NCBI GenBank assembly: GCA_964568525.1
Contig: CAZMPM010000001.1
Coordinates: forward strand, 21,307-85,306
Source: an uncultured Bacillales bacterium
GTDB lineage: Bacteria > Bacillota > Bacilli > Tepidibacillales > Tepidibacillaceae
DNA: 64,000 nt
Direction of reading: 5' to 3'
The position numbers and the translations under genes were made by a program. Shown one piece after another: positions 17,696 to 46,281 of this stretch (position 1 is the first letter of the stretch; every line of letters starts with the position of its first letter). Under the pieces are notes generated by a model. That model was not told where the DNA came from, did not search any database, and worked only from the letters and a program-made list of their open reading frames with translations.

Positions 17696-18592
17696 TTGGA
17701 AATCACGAAAAGAAAGAATCTTGTGGGTGGTTTTATTACTTTAATCGCAGGTATTGCAGTTCCGGTTTTAGCTATAGTATTGCTATTTCAAAATTACTCA
17801 AGTCTTCTAAAAGGATATGTTACTACAGGGAAACCAGCTGGTGCAATCATGCAAGATATTCATCAACCTCTATTTTCAGCGCTTTTGATGTTTGCTGGAG
17901 TATTAATGTTAGTATCTGCAGTTGGCTATTTTGGTCAGAAAAAATGGGCATTTGTTTACGGCTTTACCGGAAGCGTTTTAACACTTTTCGGTGGCTGGAT
18001 GATGGCAATGTTCCCGTTAATGGTAGGTTTAACACCATATCACTTTAGCTCATTTTTCATTGGAGCTTTTGTTTTCTTTGCTTTACTACTATATGTTAAC
18101 AAAGTTGAAACAAAAATTTGGTTAACAAGCTTGCTATTTGGTATGGACTTTGTAATGACATTTATGAATGGAAATGCGTCGCTAAATAAAATGATGGGCG
18201 GAAACCAATTAGCTAGAAATATGGCTGGTGCTCAGGGCGTTCCAAGTCCAAATGCTCCACACCGTGCGTGGGCAAAAATGAATGTAAATGATGCTTTAAT
18301 GTATGAACTAGTTCAACAAATTCTGTGGGTCAGTGCGTTTGCTTTCTTTGTGATTACAATCGCAGTAATTTACAGAAAAGATTGGGTATGGCCAGTTGCA
18401 TTAGGCGCTTCAATTATTGCAATCGGTGCTGGTTTCCCAGTTGCTATCGCTGATACTTTGGCAAAAGAATCATTATCTTCATTCTTCTTTGGACCAATTT
18501 TAGGTGTTGTTGTCTTCTTCGCGCTATTCATCTTTAAAGATCGTTTATGGGCAGAAGGACAACCTGTATTTAAGAAAAAAAAGCAAGCATAG
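17696..18592 (+). CDS. polytopic membrane protein, unknown family (copy 1)
   Basis: TTG start 9 nt after an AGGAGG RBS. About eight hydrophobic segments by eye, with a conserved hydrophilic loop NGNASLNKMMGGNQLARNMAGAQGVPSPNAPHRAWAKMNVND. I recognise no family motif. Confidence 0.8.
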   Translation: MEITKRKNLVGGFITLIAGIAVPVLAIVLLFQNYSSLLKGYVTTGKPAGAIMQDIHQPLFSALLMFAGVLMLVSAVGYFGQKKWAFVYGFTGSVLTLFGGWMMAMFPLMVGLTPYHFSSFFIGAFVFFALLLYVNKVETKIWLTSLLFGMDFVMTFMNGNASLNKMMGGNQLARNMAGAQGVPSPNAPHRAWAKMNVNDALMYELVQQILWVSAFAFFVITIAVIYRKDWVWPVALGASIIAIGAGFPVAIADTLAKESLSSFFFGPILGVVVFFALFIFKDRLWAEGQPVFKKKKQA

Positions 18593-18933: not shown

Positions 18934-19830
18934 GTGACTAAAATTGAAACAAGAAATATTGTAGGTGGTATCGTTACATTTCTTGCTGGTGTTGCTGTTC
19001 CTGTTCTCGCTATAGTACTTTTATTTGATAATTATTTTTCTATTTTAAAAGGGTTCGCAACTGCTGGCAAACCTGCTGGCGTTATGATGCAAGATATTCA
19101 TCAACCTTTATTTTCTGCAATTTTAATGCTTGCTGGAGTATTTATGTTAGTTTCTTCTGTAGGCTTCTTTTATCAAAAGAAATGGGCATTCGTTTATGGA
19201 TTAATCGGTAGTGTTATTGCTATTTTTGGTGGCTGGATGATGTCTATGTTCCCATTAATGGTTGGGTTAACACCTTACCACTTTAGCACATTCTTCATTG
19301 GCGCAATCGTATTCTTTACATTGCTGATTTATGTTAGAAGAGCTGAAGCAAAAGTGTGGATTACTAGTTTTCTATTCGGTATGGCATTCGTAATGACATT
19401 TATGAATGGTAACGCTGCTCTTAATAAAATAATGGGCGGAAACCAAATGGCTAGAAATATGGCTGGTGCTCAAGGAGTTCCTGGTCCAACAGCTCCACAC
19501 CGCGCATGGGCTAAAATGAATGTAAACGATCAACTTATGTATGAGTTGGTTCAACAAATCCTATGGGTTGGCGCATTTGCTTTCTTTGTGTTAACTATTG
19601 CAGTAGTTTTCAGAAAAGATTGGGTATGGCCTGTAGCTCTAGGTGCATCAATTATCGCAATCGGCGCTGGCTTCCCAGTTGCAATTGCTGATACAATTGC
19701 TAGTGGAGAAACTTCACAATTCTTATATGGTCCAGTTCTAGGTGTTATTATCTTCTTTGCACTATTCATCTTTAAAGATCGTTTATGGGCAGAAGGTAAA
19801 CCACTATTTAAGAAAAAAGCGAAAGCTTAA
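18934..19830 (+). CDS. polytopic membrane protein, unknown family (copy 2)
   Basis: GTG start after an AAAGGAGG RBS. Same 298-aa length as copy 1, collinear, with most positions identical by eye. Confidence 0.8.
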   Translation: MTKIETRNIVGGIVTFLAGVAVPVLAIVLLFDNYFSILKGFATAGKPAGVMMQDIHQPLFSAILMLAGVFMLVSSVGFFYQKKWAFVYGLIGSVIAIFGGWMMSMFPLMVGLTPYHFSTFFIGAIVFFTLLIYVRRAEAKVWITSFLFGMAFVMTFMNGNAALNKIMGGNQMARNMAGAQGVPGPTAPHRAWAKMNVNDQLMYELVQQILWVGAFAFFVLTIAVVFRKDWVWPVALGASIIAIGAGFPVAIADTIASGETSQFLYGPVLGVIIFFALFIFKDRLWAEGKPLFKKKAKA

Positions 19831-34630: not shown

Positions 34631-34706
34631 CGCGGGGTGGAGCAGTTGGCAGCTCGTCGGGCTCATAACCCGGAGGTCGCAGGTTCAAGTCCTGCCCCCG
34701 CAACCA
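34631..34706 (+). tRNA. tRNA-fMet (initiator, anticodon CAT)
   Basis: A cloverleaf folds by hand. It has a C1-A72 mismatch (CGCGGGG...CCCCGCA), three G-C pairs closing the anticodon stem, and an encoded CCA. Confidence 0.9.
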
Positions 34707-34776
34707 AAAATATGCAATTATATTTTTTTTTGCGTAAAATAAATGGCCAGGTAGTGGCAAAAGCGTTTATGCACGT

Positions 34777-34853
34777 GGAGCTGTGGTGTAGAGGCCTAAC
34801 ATGCCTGCCTGTCACGCAGGAGATCGCGGGTTCGAATCCCGTCAGCTCCGCCA
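34777..34853 (+). tRNA. tRNA-Asp (anticodon GTC)
   Basis: GGAGCTG...CAGCTCC acceptor stem, anticodon loop CTGTCAC, T-loop GGTTCGAATCC, and an encoded CCA. Confidence 0.9.
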
Positions 34854-34866
34854 TTAAATTAGCTGC

Positions 34867-34942
<76 letters not shown>

Positions 34943-34962
34943 TTTAGATTTAAATATTGCAA

Positions 34963-35051
34963 GCCGGGGTGGCGGAACTGGCAGACGCACAGGACTTAAA
35001 ATCCTGCGGTAGGTGACTATCGTACCGGTTCGATTCCGGTCCTCGGCACCA
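34963..35051 (+). tRNA. tRNA-Leu (anticodon TAA), class II with long variable arm
   Basis: GCCGGGG/CCTCGGC acceptor stem, anticodon loop CTTAAAA, a long variable arm, 89 nt, and an encoded CCA. Confidence 0.9.
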
Positions 35052-35887: not shown

Positions 35888-35963
35888 GACTCGGTAGCTC
35901 AGTAGGGAGAGCACCATCTTGACAGGGTGGGGGTCGCTGGTTCGAGCCCAGTCCGAGTCACCA
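35888..35963 (+). tRNA. tRNA-Val (anticodon GAC)
   Basis: GACTCGG/CCGAGTC acceptor stem, anticodon loop TTGACAG, T-arm GGTTCGAGCC, and an encoded CCA. Confidence 0.85.
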
Positions 35964-41966: not shown

Positions 41967-42009
41967 GCGTTAATGTGTTATTCTGCCACTGTAAATAAAT
42001 AATTTTTAT

Positions 42010-42047
42010 GACAGTTCGTAACCCTCCTGTCTTTAAACAAAACTAGG
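42010..42047 (+). promoter_or_regulatory. candidate preQ1-I riboswitch aptamer
   Basis: A 5-bp P1 stem GACAG/CUGUC enclosing the 12-nt loop UUCGUAACCCUC, then the A-rich tail UUUAAACAAAACUAGG. The size, the UUC start of the loop, the terminal loop C and the AAAACUAGG tail match my memory of the B. subtilis and Thermoanaerobacter preQ1-I aptamers. It lies directly upstream of que genes. Confidence 0.65.
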
Positions 42048-42082
42048 TAATAGACTACCTGATTTGTGGTGGTCTTTGTTTT

Positions 42083-42108
42083 GGGCGGAGAGTACCGCCC
42101 TTTTTTAT
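42083..42108 (+). terminator. intrinsic terminator forming the riboswitch expression platform
   Basis: GGGCGG-AGAGTA-CCGCCC followed by TTTTTTATTT, 13-22 nt before the first CDS of the operon. Confidence 0.75.
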
Positions 42109-42129
42109 TTAGAAAGCAAGGTGAGTGTA

Positions 42130-43128
42130 TTGAAGAAAATTGGTTTAACAACAACTGCACCAATTGAAGTGCTGATTGCTGCCGGTTATCAACCCGTTGA
42201 CATCAACAACTTGTTTATCGGCTCGGATCAATATCATGAATATATTGAATTTGCGGAACGGGTTGGTTTCCCGAAAAATTCTTGCGCCTGGATCAAAGGG
42301 ATTTATGGCGCTTGTATTGCTAATAATATCAAGGAGATTGTTGGCATAGTTGCAGGGGACTGTTCGAACACTAACGCTCTGCTAACGGTTTTAGACTATC
42401 ATGGTGTTAAAATTCACACTTTTGGCTATCCGTATTCGCATGAGCTTGCTGATGTGCAACTGGCGATTGATAGTTTTATTAAAAAATTTGAAACGACTAT
42501 TGAAGCAACAGAAGAGGTGCGTCAATCACTATTGCCGGTGCGTCGTTTAGCAAAAGAACTGGATCGGATGACATACGAGGATAACCTAATTAGTGGTGGG
42601 GAAAACCACCTGTTACAGCTCTGCATGAGCGACTTTGACGGTGACGTAGCTAAGTATGAGCAATCGCTGTTAGAGTTAAAAAGCGTGGCTGAGAAACGTA
42701 CGCCTTTTACGGAAAAACTTCGTTTGGGATTTATCGGAGTTCCGCCAATGATGGTGGATCTTTACGACTACGTTGAACAGTTTTCGGCGCGATTCGTTTT
42801 TAATGAGGTGCAACGCGAATTTGCTTTTCCACGCATCGAGCGAGCTAAGACAATTTACGAACAATACTATGATTATACTTATCCGTACAGCCTAAATTTT
42901 CGCTTACAGGAAATTAGCAAACAGATTGAACTTCGCAAACTTGATGGTATCATCCATTACACACAGGCTTCCTGTTATCGAGCAATTGACGATATTATTA
43001 TTAAAGAAAAACTAAACATTCCTATTCTAACGATTGAAGGGGATAAGCTAAACCGTCTAGATGCACGGACTAAGCTTAGGATTGAAGCCTTTCTTGATAT
43101 GTTGTTTGATTTGAAGGGGGCGAATTAA
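42130..43128 (+). CDS. 2-hydroxyacyl-CoA dehydratase / benzoyl-CoA reductase family (HgdB-like, HGD-D) Fe-S protein
   Basis: TTG start 5 nt after an AAGGTGAG RBS (alternative GTG at 42121). N-terminal KKIGLTTTAPIEVLIAAGYQPV, with conserved-looking Cys in NSCAWIKG, GDCSNT and QASCYRA. The track ORF N-terminus runs through the terminator and is an artefact. Confidence 0.75.
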   Translation: MKKIGLTTTAPIEVLIAAGYQPVDINNLFIGSDQYHEYIEFAERVGFPKNSCAWIKGIYGACIANNIKEIVGIVAGDCSNTNALLTVLDYHGVKIHTFGYPYSHELADVQLAIDSFIKKFETTIEATEEVRQSLLPVRRLAKELDRMTYEDNLISGGENHLLQLCMSDFDGDVAKYEQSLLELKSVAEKRTPFTEKLRLGFIGVPPMMVDLYDYVEQFSARFVFNEVQREFAFPRIERAKTIYEQYYDYTYPYSLNFRLQEISKQIELRKLDGIIHYTQASCYRAIDDIIIKEKLNIPILTIEGDKLNRLDARTKLRIEAFLDMLFDLKGAN

Positions 43129-43902
43129 ATGCGTATTCTAGGTATTGACCTTGGTAGCAGAGAGGTTAAGCTGGTCCTATTGGTAAATGGCGAAATTACG
43201 AGAAAGTATAAGATTAGTACGATGAAATTTTATCGTGATTACTGTAAACAAGGTAACTGCTTAGCCGTTGACCTTGATAAACTTGATATTGGAAATATTG
43301 ATGCTGCAGTCTCAACGGGTTATGGTCGAAACAATTATGAGTTGGCGGAATTTAAACCAATTAACGAGTTAAAAGCACATGTCTATGGCGTCTTTTACCA
43401 GCTAAAACTTAAGAATTTTATTTTATTGGATATTGGTGGACAGGACGTCAAAGTTGTAAAAGTTGAAAAAGGGATTATTACTGATATGGAGTTAAATGAT
43501 AAATGCGCCGCATCTTCTGGTCGCTATATCGAGAATATGGCTTCGTTGCTGGAGATTCCAATCGAGGAACTAACTAGTCGGTGGGAGAATCCGCTTTTAT
43601 TAAATTCAACTTGTTCAGTATTTTCCGAATCTGAACTTATTGGCAAAATTTCCGAAGGTGTACCAATTGAACGCCTAGCCGCTAGCGTAAACTATTCACT
43701 CTATTGCCGTTTAGAACCGCTACTCAGCAAACTTCCAGGACAGCGGATAGTGGTTACCGGTGGAGTTGCACTAAACCAAGCAATTATTCATTACCTACAG
43801 GCTGACTATGATGAGGTTTTGACAGTTTCGGACCCACAATACAATGGGGCGATCGGCTGTTGCTATTATGGAAAGAAATTTCTCGATAAGGGTGTGATTT
43901 AA
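43129..43902 (+). CDS. BcrAD/BadFG/HgdC-type ATPase (activase for dehydratase/reductase family enzymes)
   Basis: ASKHA-fold motifs ILGIDLGSREVK, STGYGR, DIGGQDVKVV and VTGGVALN, plus the two cluster-bridging Cys motifs NDKCAASSGRYIE and STCSVFSESE. Confidence 0.85.
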   Translation: MRILGIDLGSREVKLVLLVNGEITRKYKISTMKFYRDYCKQGNCLAVDLDKLDIGNIDAAVSTGYGRNNYELAEFKPINELKAHVYGVFYQLKLKNFILLDIGGQDVKVVKVEKGIITDMELNDKCAASSGRYIENMASLLEIPIEELTSRWENPLLLNSTCSVFSESELIGKISEGVPIERLAASVNYSLYCRLEPLLSKLPGQRIVVTGGVALNQAIIHYLQADYDEVLTVSDPQYNGAIGCCYYGKKFLDKGVI

Positions 43903-44322
43903 GTGTATTCATTAAAGATTGAACATAGTTTTGATGGTGCTCATTTCCTAGCTGGTTATCAAGGTAAATGTAGCAATATCCATGGACATCGTTGGCGTGT
44001 TGAGGTAGAGGTCCAGGCTGATAAGTTGATTGAGTCGGGGGAATATGCGGGGATGGTAGTGGATTTTTCAATCTTGAAAGACACACTTCGCAAACTAATT
44101 GAACCGTACGATCATGTTTTGATTATTGAAGCGGGTATGATGCGCGAGGCAACGTTAAACCATTTAATTGCCGATCAATTTGCAATAGCACTAGTTAATT
44201 TTCGACCAACCGCAGAAAATTTTGCGGCACACATTTACCGTGAGTTGAAGCGTGCTGATTTAGCGGTTAAACGAGTAACGATTTATGAGACGCCTACAAA
44301 TAGTGCAATATATGAAGAATAG
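43903..44322 (+). CDS. queD: 6-carboxy-5,6,7,8-tetrahydropterin synthase
   Basis: HSFDGAHFL and CSNIHGHRW (Cys-His-His Zn/catalytic motif). 139 aa. GTG start abuts the upstream stop. Confidence 0.9.
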   Translation: MYSLKIEHSFDGAHFLAGYQGKCSNIHGHRWRVEVEVQADKLIESGEYAGMVVDFSILKDTLRKLIEPYDHVLIIEAGMMREATLNHLIADQFAIALVNFRPTAENFAAHIYRELKRADLAVKRVTIYETPTNSAIYEE

Positions 44323-44335
44323 GTTGTGATTACCA

Positions 44336-45004
44336 ATGTCATATAAAGTCGTTGAAAAGTTTACTAGCATCAATGGCGAGGGACTTAGGGCGGGTGAGCC
44401 GGCTGTTTTTATTCGTTTTGCAGGTTGTAACTTAAATTGTAACTATTGCGATACGAGTTGGGCAAATCAACCGGAAGTTGTTTTCGAACCAATGACTGCA
44501 GAGGGAATCTATAATTACATTATTAATACGGGTCTTAAGAATGTTACATTGACCGGAGGCGAACCACTGCTACAAGAGAATATTACTGATCTGTTATTGT
44601 TATTAGGGAGAAATCCAAATTTGCGGATTGAAATTGAAACAAATGGCAGCATTGATTTAGCTCCGTATTATCGACTTAACATCAAGAACCTAGTTTTTAC
44701 AATGGATTATAAATTGCCGCTCAGCAGGATGGAGCAACAAATGTTAATCAGTAATTTAGATTATTTAAGCGAATTAGATGTTCTAAAGTTTGTTGTTCAG
44801 AATGTGACGGAACTGAAGCACATAGATGAGTTTATTACAAAGTATGATTTGATTGAGAAGACGAATCTGTTGATCAGCCCAGTATATGGTGCAATTAACC
44901 CAGATACAATTGTCCAATATATGTTAGAGCATGGGCAGAACGATCTGAGAATACAATTGCAGTTACACAAAATCATCTGGGGTCAAGAAAGTAGGGGGGT
45001 ATAA
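44336..45004 (+). CDS. queE: 7-carboxy-7-deazaguanine synthase (radical SAM)
   Basis: [29 protein letters not shown] (a CX3CX2C cluster) and LTGGEPLL. Confidence 0.9.
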
Positions 45005-45006
45005 AG

Positions 45007-45597
45007 ATGGCGGTTGATAAAAAGGCAATCGAGGAACATGTTAGGGGGATTTTAATCGCAATGGGTGAAGATCCCAATCGTGAGGGCTTAAAAGAAACAC
45101 CAATGCGTGTGGCAGCAATGTACGAAGAGCGTTTTGAAGGTGTTGGTTATAGCAATCAGGAGATTGCCGAGATGTTTAATGTCACTTTTGAAGATGACTT
45201 AATCGTAGGACACGAAAAAGATATTGTGATTCTTAAAGATATTGAGTTTTTCAGTCACTGTGAGCATCATATTGCTTTGATGTACAATATGAAGGCAACC
45301 GTTGCCTATATTCCGAAAACAAAGGTGATTGGTCTCAGCAAAATTGTTCGCGTAGTTGACATGGTTGGTCGCCGTCTCCAGTTGCAAGAACGAATTGGCT
45401 CCGATATTGCTGAAATAATGCAATTAATAACAGGATCAGAGAATGTTGCGGTTATTATTGAGGGCGAACATGCTTGTATAACGACTAGAGGCATACAAAA
45501 ACCAAATACAAAAACAATTACATCAACTCTTCGCGGTGAATTTGTTACAAATTCTGCTTTAAATAATGAACTAATGATGCTCTGTAATCGAGGATAG
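45007..45597 (+). CDS. folE: GTP cyclohydrolase I
   Basis: [25 protein letters not shown] and [11 protein letters not shown] motifs. Confidence 0.92.
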
Positions 45598-46281
45598 GTG
45601 AGAAAAATGCAGTCAAGTGCGATTGTAGTCTTAAGTGGTGGTCAGGACAGTACTACCTGTCTATTCTGGGCAATGGAGAGTTATAATCAAGTAATTGCGC
45701 TCTCGTTTGATTATGGACAGAAACATCGCATGGAACTGACCCAAGCTCACAAAATCTGCGAGTCAGCAGGAGTTGAACATCATATCCTTTCGCTACCGCT
45801 GCTAAACGAGCTTAGCGCAAACTCACTAACGCGAGCGGAGATTGCTGTTGACACAAGCGAAACTGGCGGTGAGAGGGAGATTAGCGCGAACTTGCCGAGC
45901 TCTTTTGTGGAGGGGCGAAATCTACTGTTTATCAACTACGCGGCGATTTTTGCGAAGGGGCGGTCGGTTAAGGATATCGTGGTTGGGGTTTCGGAGGCGG
46001 ACTATAGTGGTTATCCCGATTGTCGTGCTGATTTCATCAGTTCATTACAAAAGACACTGCGGCTGGCGATGGAGTATGATTTTGTTATTGAGACGCCTCT
46101 GATGATGTTGACCAAAGCAGAGGTTTGGCAATTGGCTGAGCAGTTAGATATTGTGGAGTTAATTATGCATGAAACCGTGACTTGCTATCAGGGCATTGCT
46201 GGCAGTGGCTGCGGTGAGTGCATTGCTTGTAAGCTTAGAAAAAAAGGTTATGATGAATATCTTAGGTTAAAGCGGGGGTAG
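45598..46281 (+). CDS. queC: 7-cyano-7-deazaguanine (preQ0) synthase
   Basis: PP-loop VVLSGGQDSTTC and a C-terminal Zn Cys cluster CYQG...GCGECIACKLR. Alternative ATG at 45607. Confidence 0.92.
   Translation: MRKMQSSAIVVLSGGQDSTTCLFWAMESYNQVIALSFDYGQKHRMELTQAHKICESAGVEHHILSLPLLNELSANSLTRAEIAVDTSETGGEREISANLPSSFVEGRNLLFINYAAIFAKGRSVKDIVVGVSEADYSGYPDCRADFISSLQKTLRLAMEYDFVIETPLMMLTKAEVWQLAEQLDIVELIMHETVTCYQGIAGSGCGECIACKLRKKGYDEYLRLKRG

What the first reader, a model, noticed from the sequence alone, without database searches (positions are those of the whole stretch)
42130..43902. Only one structural subunit next to the activase, with no CoA-metabolism genes nearby
Established: characterised 2-hydroxyacyl-CoA dehydratases are heterodimers encoded by two paralogous genes (HgdA/HgdB type) plus an activator. 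They normally sit beside CoA-transferase and dehydrogenase genes. Benzoyl-CoA reductases have four subunits. Seen here: a single 332-aa HGD-D-like gene and one activase. The activase has both cluster-bridging Cys motifs, CAASSGRY and CSVFSESE. No second paralogue, CoA-transferase or acyl-CoA gene lies within the operon. Inference: the enzyme is homomeric, like the ATP-dependent reductases of this superfamily such as the double-cubane-cluster proteins, which reduce small unsaturated molecules. It is probably not a classical CoA-ester dehydratase.
Basis: partly seen in the sequence, partly recalled or inferred. Interest (0 to 1): 0.7.

Follow-up and report, generated by a model that had tools for sequence, protein, structure and literature searches.

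The report
Candidate iron-sulfur replacement for QueF
The lone dehydratase-like gene and its ATP-driven activator are the first two genes of a riboswitch-controlled queuosine-precursor operon that lacks the usual nitrile reductase QueF, so they are probably a previously unrecognised, oxygen-sensitive enzyme that makes the tRNA-modification precursor preQ1 in many anaerobes, including Clostridium botulinum.

Summary
There is one 332-aa HGD-D-family gene (42130-43128) and one activase (43129-43902) with both bridging-Cys motifs. No second paralogue or CoA gene is present.

The pair abuts queD, queE, folE and queC in a six-gene operon behind a preQ1-I-like riboswitch and terminator. QueF, the enzyme for the last step (preQ0 to preQ1), is absent.

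- In 83 loci from other genomes the pair is always adjacent.
- 74 of the 83 loci carry downstream que biosynthesis genes. Four more carry only a preQ0/preQ1 transporter gene (QueT or YhhQ).
- 80 of 84 loci have the same riboswitch-like element upstream.
- None has QueF within 10 kb.
- 118 QueF-containing metagenome loci never carry the pair. Several of these are the same operon with queF at the end.

The protein keeps only the three superfamily [4Fe-4S] cysteines. It is therefore neither a double-cubane protein nor a heterodimeric CoA dehydratase.

Best reading (about 0.6): a single-subunit, ATP-dependent Fe-S preQ0 reductase that replaces QueF. I could not test whether these genomes lack QueF altogether, and there is no biochemistry. 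I found no prior report.

The parts
42006..42052 (+). preQ1-I-like riboswitch aptamer (GACAG UUCGUAACCCUC CUGUC UUUAAACAAAACUAGG)
   Evidence: Rfam RF00522 gives a full-length match at 28.3 bits (below the gathering score of 39), E 5e-4 in a 301-nt search. The same element lies directly upstream of the HGD-D gene in 80 of 84 loci. It also lies upstream of canonical queF or queD-queE-folE-queC-queF units.
42083..42110 (+). Intrinsic terminator (GGGCGG-AGAGUA-CCGCCC plus a U-run), the expression platform of the riboswitch
   Evidence: Terminator scan. In the minimum-free-energy fold, the 3' strand of the aptamer stem pairs with the 5' strand of the terminator, which would act as an antiterminator.
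42130..43128 (+). Single HGD-D-family Fe-S subunit (332 aa), candidate catalytic component of a preQ0 reductase
   Evidence: PF06050, E 5e-34. AlphaFold2 model pLDDT 87.7. Foldseek matches BzdN/O, MbdO/N, HadB/C and DCCP at TM 0.7-0.8. C52, C62, C78 and C282 are invariant in the close clade. C52, C78 and C282 are conserved family-wide.
43129..43902 (+). ATP-dependent activase ('archerase') with the bridging [4Fe-4S] Cys motifs
   Evidence: PF01869 and TIGR00241. Closest solved structures are 4eht (E 1e-36) and 1hux (E 1e-35). Adjacent to the HGD-D gene in 83 of 83 loci and fused to it in some relatives.
43903..44322 (+). queD (6-carboxytetrahydropterin synthase)
   Evidence: PF01242, and TIGR03367 above its cutoff.
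44336..45004 (+). queE, Clostridium-type radical SAM 7-carboxy-7-deazaguanine synthase
   Evidence: TIGR03963 at 299 bits, above its cutoff.
45007..45597 (+). folE (GTP cyclohydrolase I)
   Evidence: PF01227, E 3.6e-64, and TIGR00063.
45598..46281 (+). [quoted passage not shown]
   Evidence: PF06508, E 4.8e-77, and TIGR00364.

Best explanation
The HGD-D-like protein and its activase form a two-component, ATP-dependent iron-sulfur reductase. It carries out the last free-base step of queuosine biosynthesis, reducing the nitrile of preQ0 (7-cyano-7-deazaguanine) to the aminomethyl group of preQ1. It thereby replaces the unrelated NADPH-dependent enzyme QueF.

Proposed mechanism (inferred):
- A low-potential donor such as ferredoxin or flavodoxin reduces the activase dimer's bridging [4Fe-4S] cluster.
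- ATP hydrolysis drives that electron onto the [4Fe-4S] cluster of the HGD-D subunit. The subunit is probably a homodimer, with the cluster held by C52, C78 and C282 and one iron left open.
- The preQ0 nitrile binds at or near the open iron and is reduced in four ATP-gated one-electron, one-proton steps, through an imine, to preQ1.

Shown: the operon is switched off by a preQ1-type riboswitch that acts through transcription termination.
Shown: gene content, operon architecture, its conservation, the riboswitch element, the fold and the cysteine pattern.
Inferred: the substrate, the reaction, the oligomeric state and the electron count.
For: 1. In the window the pair is the 5' end of a tightly packed operon, HGD-D-activase-queD-queE-folE-queC. 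It lies behind a preQ1-I-like aptamer and terminator. QueF is the only missing enzyme on the GTP-to-preQ1 route.

2. In 83 loci from other genomes (Clostridium including C. botulinum and C. sporogenes, Peptostreptococcaceae, Vallitalea, Halanaerobiales, Fusobacteriaceae, anaerobic Bacillales) the activase is always adjacent. The downstream genes are queD-queE-(folE)-queC or queC-queD-queE in 67 loci (including four cut by a contig end), queC-QueT in 7, QueT or YhhQ alone in 4, nothing related in 2, and one more locus ends at the contig edge. These three layouts mirror the three QueF-containing pathway variants (de novo, CDG salvage, preQ0 salvage) catalogued in PMC6593275.

3. QueF is absent from all 83 loci within 10 kb by phmmer. 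tblastn finds no remnant in 1.57 Mb.

4. Reciprocal control: of 120 metagenome loci picked by a QueF DNA motif, 118 encode QueF and none encodes the pair. At least seven are riboswitch-queD-queE(Clostridium type)-folE-queC-queF. Their riboswitch is the same variant, and their QueD, QueE and FolE are 54-72% identical to those of the HGD-D-type operons.

5. The riboswitch element precedes the pair in 80 of 84 loci. In six loci the pair is split from queDE-folE-queC and each unit has its own copy. Four metagenome loci are riboswitch-queF alone, the exact analogue of the stand-alone riboswitch-HGD-D-activase unit.

6. Fold and cofactor pattern fit an archerase-driven Fe-S enzyme with an open iron site. 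According to PMC7317905, the related DCCP reduces acetylene in an ATP-dependent reaction and is inhibited by cyanide.

7. The family occurs in anaerobes, as expected for such an enzyme.
Against: The evidence is contextual only; there is no biochemistry or genetics.

I could not test whether the genomes carrying the pair lack QueF altogether. QueF can be a stand-alone gene (75 of 118 QueF loci have no queC nearby). It is so conserved that the protein search was saturated with hits of 65-95% identity, mostly 84-90%.

PMC6593275 classes C. botulinum type A and C. sporogenes as queuosine prototrophs, under a variant that nominally includes QueF. Its gene-level table is not held. A QueF elsewhere in those genomes is therefore not excluded.

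Nitrile reduction by NADPH is thermodynamically feasible, so an ATP-consuming route needs a rationale.

More distant family members (about 40-45% identity) show no que genes or riboswitch nearby.

The riboswitch match is below Rfam's gathering score.
Confidence: 0.6

Rival explanations
1. The pair acts in queuosine metabolism but on a different 7-deazaguanine reaction. Examples are converting another salvaged precursor (queuine or a related base) into preQ1, or making a still unknown 7-deazaguanine derivative, with QueF present elsewhere in the genome.
For: The riboswitch and que-gene linkage only tie the pair to the pathway, not to one step. Operons that contain only the pair plus QueT or YhhQ would also fit a salvage-conversion enzyme. 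Genome-level absence of QueF is untested.
Against: One function must explain the de novo, queC-QueT and transporter-only operons. The only step common to all three is preQ0 to preQ1. Otherwise homologous operons carry queF in place of the pair. A preQ1-repressed operon is expected to produce preQ1.
Confidence: 0.17
2. The pair works at the tRNA level. It could be a third type of epoxyqueuosine reductase replacing QueG or QueH, or a reductase acting on preQ0 already inserted in tRNA.
For: Epoxide deoxygenation and nitrile reduction are both reductive steps suited to a low-potential Fe-S enzyme. According to PMC5699537, QueG is missing in many queuosine-containing organisms.
Against: The pair occupies the operon position of queF, among free-base enzymes and base transporters, not next to tgt or queA. 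No RNA-binding domain was found and the protein is acidic, with pI about 5.2. Stand-alone riboswitch-queF units are the direct analogue.
Confidence: 0.1
3. It is an ordinary 2-hydroxyacyl-CoA dehydratase or other CoA-ester radical enzyme that merely sits next to the que genes. Alternatively it is a general double-cubane-type small-molecule reductase unrelated to queuosine.
For: It belongs to Pfam HGD-D and to the activase family. Public annotations call it 2-hydroxyacyl-CoA dehydratase. Its closest solved relative by sequence is DCCP.
Against: There is a single subunit and no CoA-transferase or dehydrogenase genes in 83 loci. 80 of 84 loci have the que-type riboswitch directly upstream. The DCCP 7-Cys motif is lacking, and the double_cubane model scores 35 bits against a cutoff of 350.
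Confidence: 0.04

Closest known systems
[quoted passage not shown]
   Same: It holds the same place in the pathway and in operon logic. It is found with queC, queD, queE and folE, with queC plus a transporter, or alone behind the same preQ1-type riboswitch. The proposed reaction is the same: preQ0 to preQ1.
   Different: There is no sequence or fold relationship. It is a two-gene, Fe-S, ATP-dependent and presumably oxygen-sensitive system rather than a single NADPH enzyme with a catalytic cysteine. The two never occur in the same locus (0 of 83 and 0 of 118).
Double-cubane cluster protein DCCP with DCCP-R (PDB 6eno, 7yyl)
   Same: One HGD-D-type gene plus one activase. The fold matches at TM about 0.72-0.78, with the highest sequence identity among solved structures (18-20%). 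It is the only solved relative found by sequence search. DCCP performs ATP-dependent reduction of a triple bond, acetylene (PMC7317905).
   Different: The protein here is about 90 residues shorter and lacks the N-terminal extension. It has three of the six ligand cysteines and none of the rest of the 7-Cys motif. It scores far below the NCBIfam cutoff. A single [4Fe-4S] cluster is expected, not [8Fe-9S].
2-hydroxyacyl-CoA dehydratases (HgdAB or HadBC with HgdC or HadI)
   Same: The activase is most similar to HadI and HgdC (E 1e-36 and 1e-35). The HGD-D fold is shared, as is a three-Cys pattern that leaves one cluster iron open.
   Different: These enzymes are heterodimers of two paralogous subunits and are encoded with CoA-transferase and dehydrogenase genes. 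Here there is one subunit and que genes instead. Sequence similarity is not detectable with a single-sequence search.
Class I benzoyl-CoA reductases (BcrABCD, BzdNOPQ, MbdONPQ)
   Same: The catalytic subunits share the fold (TM 0.69-0.77). Electron transfer is ATP-driven through a related activase module.
   Different: These have four subunits and an aromatic CoA thioester substrate. Neither feature is present here.

Membership tests
2-hydroxyacyl-CoA dehydratase (HgdAB/HadBC type) | Two paralogous HGD-D subunits encoded side by side | tested here: not met
   There is one HGD-D gene per locus in the window and in 83 of 83 related loci. No second paralogue is present in the 64-kb window.
2-hydroxyacyl-CoA dehydratase (HgdAB/HadBC type) | ATP-dependent activator with two conserved Cys that bridge a [4Fe-4S] cluster | tested here: met
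   PF01869 and TIGR00241 score above their cutoffs. CAASSGRY and CSVFSESE align to the corresponding motifs of 4eht.
2-hydroxyacyl-CoA dehydratase (HgdAB/HadBC type) | Genomic association with CoA-transferase and 2-hydroxyacid dehydrogenase genes | tested here: not met
   The recurrent neighbours are queD, queE, folE, queC, QueT and YhhQ only.
2-hydroxyacyl-CoA dehydratase (HgdAB/HadBC type) | CoA-thioester substrate bound through its carbonyl to the open cluster iron | not testable with these tools
   This needs biochemistry or a structure with ligand.
Double-cubane cluster protein (DCCP) | 7-Cys motif with six ligands for an [8Fe-9S] cluster (PMC7317905) | tested here: not met
   Only C52, C78 and C282 are conserved (53, 53 and 51 of 57 family representatives). 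No conserved Cys lies between positions 78 and 282.
Double-cubane cluster protein (DCCP) | Score above the NCBIfam NF040772 cutoff | tested here: not met
   35.1 bits against a cutoff of 350.
Double-cubane cluster protein (DCCP) | Single structural gene paired with one activase; homodimer | tested here: inconclusive
   The gene arrangement matches. The oligomeric state was not tested.
Class I benzoyl-CoA reductase | Four subunits (two HGD-D-type and two activase-type) | tested here: not met
   There is one gene of each type.
QueF (T-fold nitrile reductase) | Match to PF14489/PF14819 with the catalytic Cys and the E(S/L)K(S/A)hK(L/Y)(Y/F/W) motif (motif recalled from my own knowledge) | tested here: not met
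   Neither protein matches QueF models. The relationship is proposed to be functional, not homologous.
preQ1-I riboswitch (Rfam RF00522) | Score at or above the gathering threshold of 39 bits | tested here: not met
   28.3 bits in the window and 24.2 bits in C. argentinense. None of seven loci reaches the threshold.
preQ1-I riboswitch (Rfam RF00522) | Full-length aptamer architecture (short stem, 12-nt loop, A-rich tail ending ACUAGG) upstream of queuosine genes | tested here: met
   Matches cover the whole model, positions 1-45. The element is present upstream of the pair in 80 of 84 loci and upstream of canonical queF and queD units. A terminator and antiterminator alternative is predicted.

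The most novel reading that the evidence does not exclude
This is the first nitrile reductase that is not a T-fold enzyme. It would be an archerase-energised, single-subunit [4Fe-4S] enzyme that reduces the C-N triple bond of preQ0 by four electrons at an open cluster iron. [quoted passage not shown] It would also give the HGD-D/activase superfamily its first physiological non-CoA substrate.
Probability: 0.5. Interest if true: 0.85.

Novelty: new variant of a known kind. Interest (0 to 1): 0.75.

Why it matters
Queuosine biosynthesis is regarded as fully worked out, with QueF as the only known enzyme that reduces a nitrile to an amine.

- A second, unrelated and ATP-dependent Fe-S solution would be a clean case of non-orthologous displacement in a core tRNA-modification pathway.
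- It would correct pathway reconstructions that score anaerobes by the presence of QueF, including gut-microbiome queuosine budgets.
- It would give the poorly understood single-subunit HGD-D/activase systems a concrete, testable physiological substrate.
- It would add a nitrogenase-like C-N triple-bond reduction to the chemistry of this superfamily.
- Public annotation currently calls these proteins 2-hydroxyacyl-CoA dehydratases, which is probably wrong for this clade.

Tried and rejected
1. Genome-level test for absence of QueF. A protein search with a Fusobacterium-like QueF returned 120 hits of 65-95% identity (mostly 84-90%) from many phyla, with few names, so it could not show presence or absence in particular species. 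The supplementary tables of PMC6593275 and PMC11130926 did not hold gene-level queuosine data for the relevant species.

2. Literature. Ten full-text searches combined queuosine, preQ0, preQ1 and QueF with dehydratase, activase, double-cubane, benzoyl-CoA reductase, COG and Pfam identifiers. None found a paper linking the two.

3. Phage link. No relative was found in IMG/VR or in GenBank phages.

4. Distant family members were examined to widen the context evidence. Four look-ups showed no que genes and no riboswitch.

5. C62 as a universal catalytic residue. This was rejected, because C62 is invariant only in the que-linked clade and is present in 7 of 57 representatives family-wide.

6. QueF pseudogene remnants behind queC. 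None were found.

7. The DCCP reading was rejected on cysteine count and model score.
Full report
**1. What is in the window**

The finding's coordinates hold two abutting + strand genes.
- The first is an HGD-D-family protein of 332 aa (TTG 42130 to 43128; PF06050, E 5e-34).
- The second is a BcrAD_BadFG/HgdC-type activase of 257 aa (43129-43902; PF01869, E 1e-26; TIGR00241 above its cutoff).
- The TTG start is supported by an AAGGTGAG ribosome-binding site and by the MKKIGLTTT N-terminus shared with homologues.
- The activase contains CAASSGRY and CSVFSESE. These align with the corresponding Cys motifs of the 2-hydroxyisocaproyl-CoA dehydratase activator (4eht, E 1e-36; 1hux, E 1e-35).
- No second HGD-D paralogue or CoA-metabolism gene occurs in the operon or anywhere in the 64-kb window.

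**2.

The two genes are the 5' end of a six-gene operon. Spacers between genes are 0-13 nt.
- The downstream genes are queD (43903-44322), a Clostridium-type radical SAM queE (44336-45004; TIGR03963, 299 bits), folE (45007-45597) and queC (45598-46281).
- Together these four enzymes make preQ0 from GTP. The one enzyme missing on the way to preQ1 is the nitrile reductase QueF.
- The 163-nt leader contains a full-length match to the preQ1-I aptamer (42006-42052; 28.3 bits, below Rfam's gathering score of 39; E 5e-4 for the region searched).
- The aptamer is followed by a G+C-rich hairpin with a U-run (42083-42110).
- In the minimum-free-energy fold, the 3' strand of the aptamer stem pairs with the 5' strand of the terminator. 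This is the expected antiterminator alternative of an OFF switch.

The surrounding genes are alaS, addAB, acuABC, dinB and mraZ-rsmH-ftsL-pbp-murE. Some were identified with Pfam and the rest by eye from their translations. They indicate a Bacillales-like chromosome.

**3. Is the association conserved?**

The family is well conserved. The best 120 database hits are 330-350 aa long and 60-82% identical. A scan of one genome per GTDB species found 216 species with a relative, and 80 loci were fetched. They include:
- Clostridium (C. botulinum, C. sporogenes, C. argentinense and others);
- Peptostreptococcaceae, Vallitalea and Halanaerobiales;
- Fusobacteriaceae (Ilyobacter, Propionigenium);
- uncultured anaerobic Bacillales, which are the closest relatives at 76-82% identity.

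I analysed these 80 loci, three more from exact look-ups, and the window itself. The activase is adjacent in every locus. The counts below cover 83 loci in all: the window plus 82 of the fetched loci, leaving out L002, which is a near-duplicate of L001.

| Layout downstream of the pair | Loci |
|---|---|
| queD-queE-folE-queC | 53 (two end at a contig edge just after queC) |
| queD-queE-queC | 8 |
| queC-queD-queE | 5 |
| queC-QueT | 7 |
| QueT only | 3 |
| YhhQ (Vut_1) only | 1 |
| No related gene | 2 |
| Cut by a contig end before the layout is clear | 4 |

QueT and YhhQ were confirmed with Pfam. These layouts parallel the three QueF-containing pathway variants described in PMC6593275: full de novo synthesis, CDG salvage with QueC plus QueF, and preQ0 salvage with QueF alone.

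**4. The riboswitch**

A relaxed pattern for the element (GACAGUUCGUAACCAUCCUGUCUAUAAACAAAACUAGG) hits directly upstream of the HGD-D gene in 80 of 84 loci.
- In six Clostridium loci the pair is separated from queD-queE-folE-queC by an oppositely oriented DUF1846 gene. In these loci each unit carries its own copy of the element. The pair is therefore regulated as a queuosine-pathway unit in its own right.
- The variant stays below Rfam's gathering score in all eight loci examined with Rfam. Its identity rests on the full-length model match, the context, and its presence in front of canonical queF genes (section 5).

**5. QueF and the pair exclude each other at the operon level**

- It finds no QueF within 10 kb of the pair in any of the 83 fetched loci or in the window. 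tblastn finds no remnant in 1.57 Mb.
- As a reciprocal control I scanned metagenome contigs with an AT-rich DNA pattern for the QueF active-site peptide CP.TGQPDF. Of 120 loci, 118 encode QueF and none encodes an HGD-D or activase relative.
- At least seven of these loci are riboswitch-queD-queE-folE-queC-queF. Their riboswitch is the same variant, their queE is the same Clostridium type, and their proteins are 54-72% identical to those of the HGD-D-type operons.
- Four loci are riboswitch-queF alone.
- The two operon types are thus homologous and differ in one respect: queF at the 3' end, or HGD-D plus activase at the 5' end. Both types occur within Fusobacteriaceae. The QueF of L133 is 88% identical to that of Fusobacterium hominis, whereas Ilyobacter and Propionigenium carry the pair.

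**6. What kind of protein is it?**

- An AlphaFold2 model (pLDDT 87.7) matches BzdN/O, MbdO/N, HadB/C and DCCP about equally (Foldseek E about 1e-13; TM 0.69-0.80). Identity is highest to DCCP, at 18-20%.
- By sequence, only DCCP is detected among solved structures (E 1e-4 with the single sequence, 1e-10 with a profile).
- An exhaustive HMMER search of 1.84 billion cluster representatives finds only 349 relatives at E <= 1e-3. The family is small and sharply separated from classical HGD-D proteins.
- About a dozen representatives are 590-640 aa long. The three of that size that I scanned with Pfam are natural HGD-D-activase fusions, which confirms the functional pairing.
- In the close clade C52, C62, C78 and C282 are invariant. 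Across the wider family only C52, C78 and C282 are conserved, and C62 is not.
- By my count from the printed alignment, these three align with DCCP C114, C144 and C374.
- According to PMC7317905, DCCPs are defined by a 7-Cys motif with six ligands for an [8Fe-9S] cluster. HadB and HadC bind a [4Fe-4S] cluster through three Cys and leave one iron open for the substrate.
- The protein here has the three-Cys pattern, lacks DCCP's N-terminal extension, and scores 35 bits against a cutoff of 350 for the NCBIfam double_cubane model.

It is therefore neither a DCCP nor a heterodimeric dehydratase. It is a distinct, single-subunit, three-Cys clade. It is acidic (pI about 5.2) and has no recognisable RNA-binding domain.

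**7. Interpretation**

The one step common to all three operon layouts, and the only step missing from them, is preQ0 to preQ1. I therefore propose that the pair is an ATP-dependent Fe-S preQ0 reductase that replaces QueF.
- The chemistry is plausible by analogy. Enzymes of this superfamily use an ATP-energised electron to reduce substrates that are hard to reduce. DCCP reduces a triple bond and is inhibited by cyanide.
- From my own knowledge, nitrogenase reduces nitriles.
- The nitrile nitrogen could bind the open iron of the cluster. Four one-electron steps would be needed.

All of this mechanism is inference.

**8. Caveats**

- I could not establish that genomes with the pair lack QueF altogether. 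QueF is often a stand-alone gene, and the tools left no way to scan whole genomes for it.
- PMC6593275 scores C. botulinum A and C. sporogenes as queuosine prototrophs under a variant that nominally requires QueF. This may mean that a QueF exists elsewhere in those genomes, or that the gap was not flagged.
- More distant family members (about 40-45% identity, including Dehalococcoidales) show no queuosine context. The functional claim is therefore limited to the clade at about 58% identity or above.
- Rival readings cannot be excluded without experiments, but they explain the operon variants less simply. The rivals are another 7-deazaguanine conversion, a tRNA-level reductase such as an epoxyqueuosine reductase, and an unrelated CoA enzyme.

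**9. Novelty**

- No paper in the searchable library links HGD-D or activase proteins to queuosine.
- NCBIfam release 20 has no specific model for the family.
- Public names are generic, such as '2-hydroxyacyl-CoA dehydratase family protein'.

I rate it a new variant of a known kind: a known two-component Fe-S/ATPase machinery with a new, specific and testable physiological role.

Noticed in passing
window 17696-18592 and 18934-19830 (+): Two tandem paralogous 298-aa predicted membrane proteins with similar N-termini and no Pfam match.
   Followed up: partly
window 34631-35048 and 35888-35960 (+): A cluster of four tRNA genes, with a fifth tRNA gene about 800 nt downstream, lies upstream of the ABC-transporter and acuABC region.
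   Followed up: no
L010, L003, L035, L048, L057, L016 and L133; 80 of 84 loci: This widespread que-operon riboswitch variant (loop UUCGUAACCAUC, tail AUAAACAAAACUAGG) scores only 24-28 bits against Rfam RF00522, whose gathering score is 39. Standard Rfam annotation therefore misses it.
   Followed up: partly
L012, L033, L037, L038, L043 and L053: In six Clostridium loci a DUF1846 gene on the opposite strand splits HGD-D-activase from queD-queE-folE-queC. The riboswitch element is duplicated, with one copy in front of each unit.
   Followed up: partly
proteins P0304 (826 aa) and P0329 (968 aa): These distant, apparently high-GC family members are fusions. An extra N-terminal segment resembles the C-terminal half of another HGD-D domain. 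It is followed by the HGD-D domain and then the activase. This hints at a two-domain ancestor or a separate subfamily.
   Followed up: partly
L086 775-2352 (-) and L094 209-1831 (+), IMG/VR contigs: These are phage-like contigs. They encode QueF fused to an uncharacterised N-terminal domain of about 370 aa and lie next to queC. The 12 viral QueF loci all have queC within a few kb, and it is adjacent in most of them.
   Followed up: no
window 44336-45004 (+): The queE is the Clostridium-type radical SAM form (TIGR03963), although the flanking genes (acuABC, addAB, the mraZ-murE cluster) look Bacillales-like. The whole HGD-D-type operon may have moved between Clostridia and anaerobic Bacillales.
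   Followed up: no
L034 5325-8291 (+): A separate activase-related ORF of about 990 aa lies 1.7 kb upstream of the HGD-D gene in one Clostridium MAG. It probably belongs to an unrelated fused activase system.
   Followed up: no
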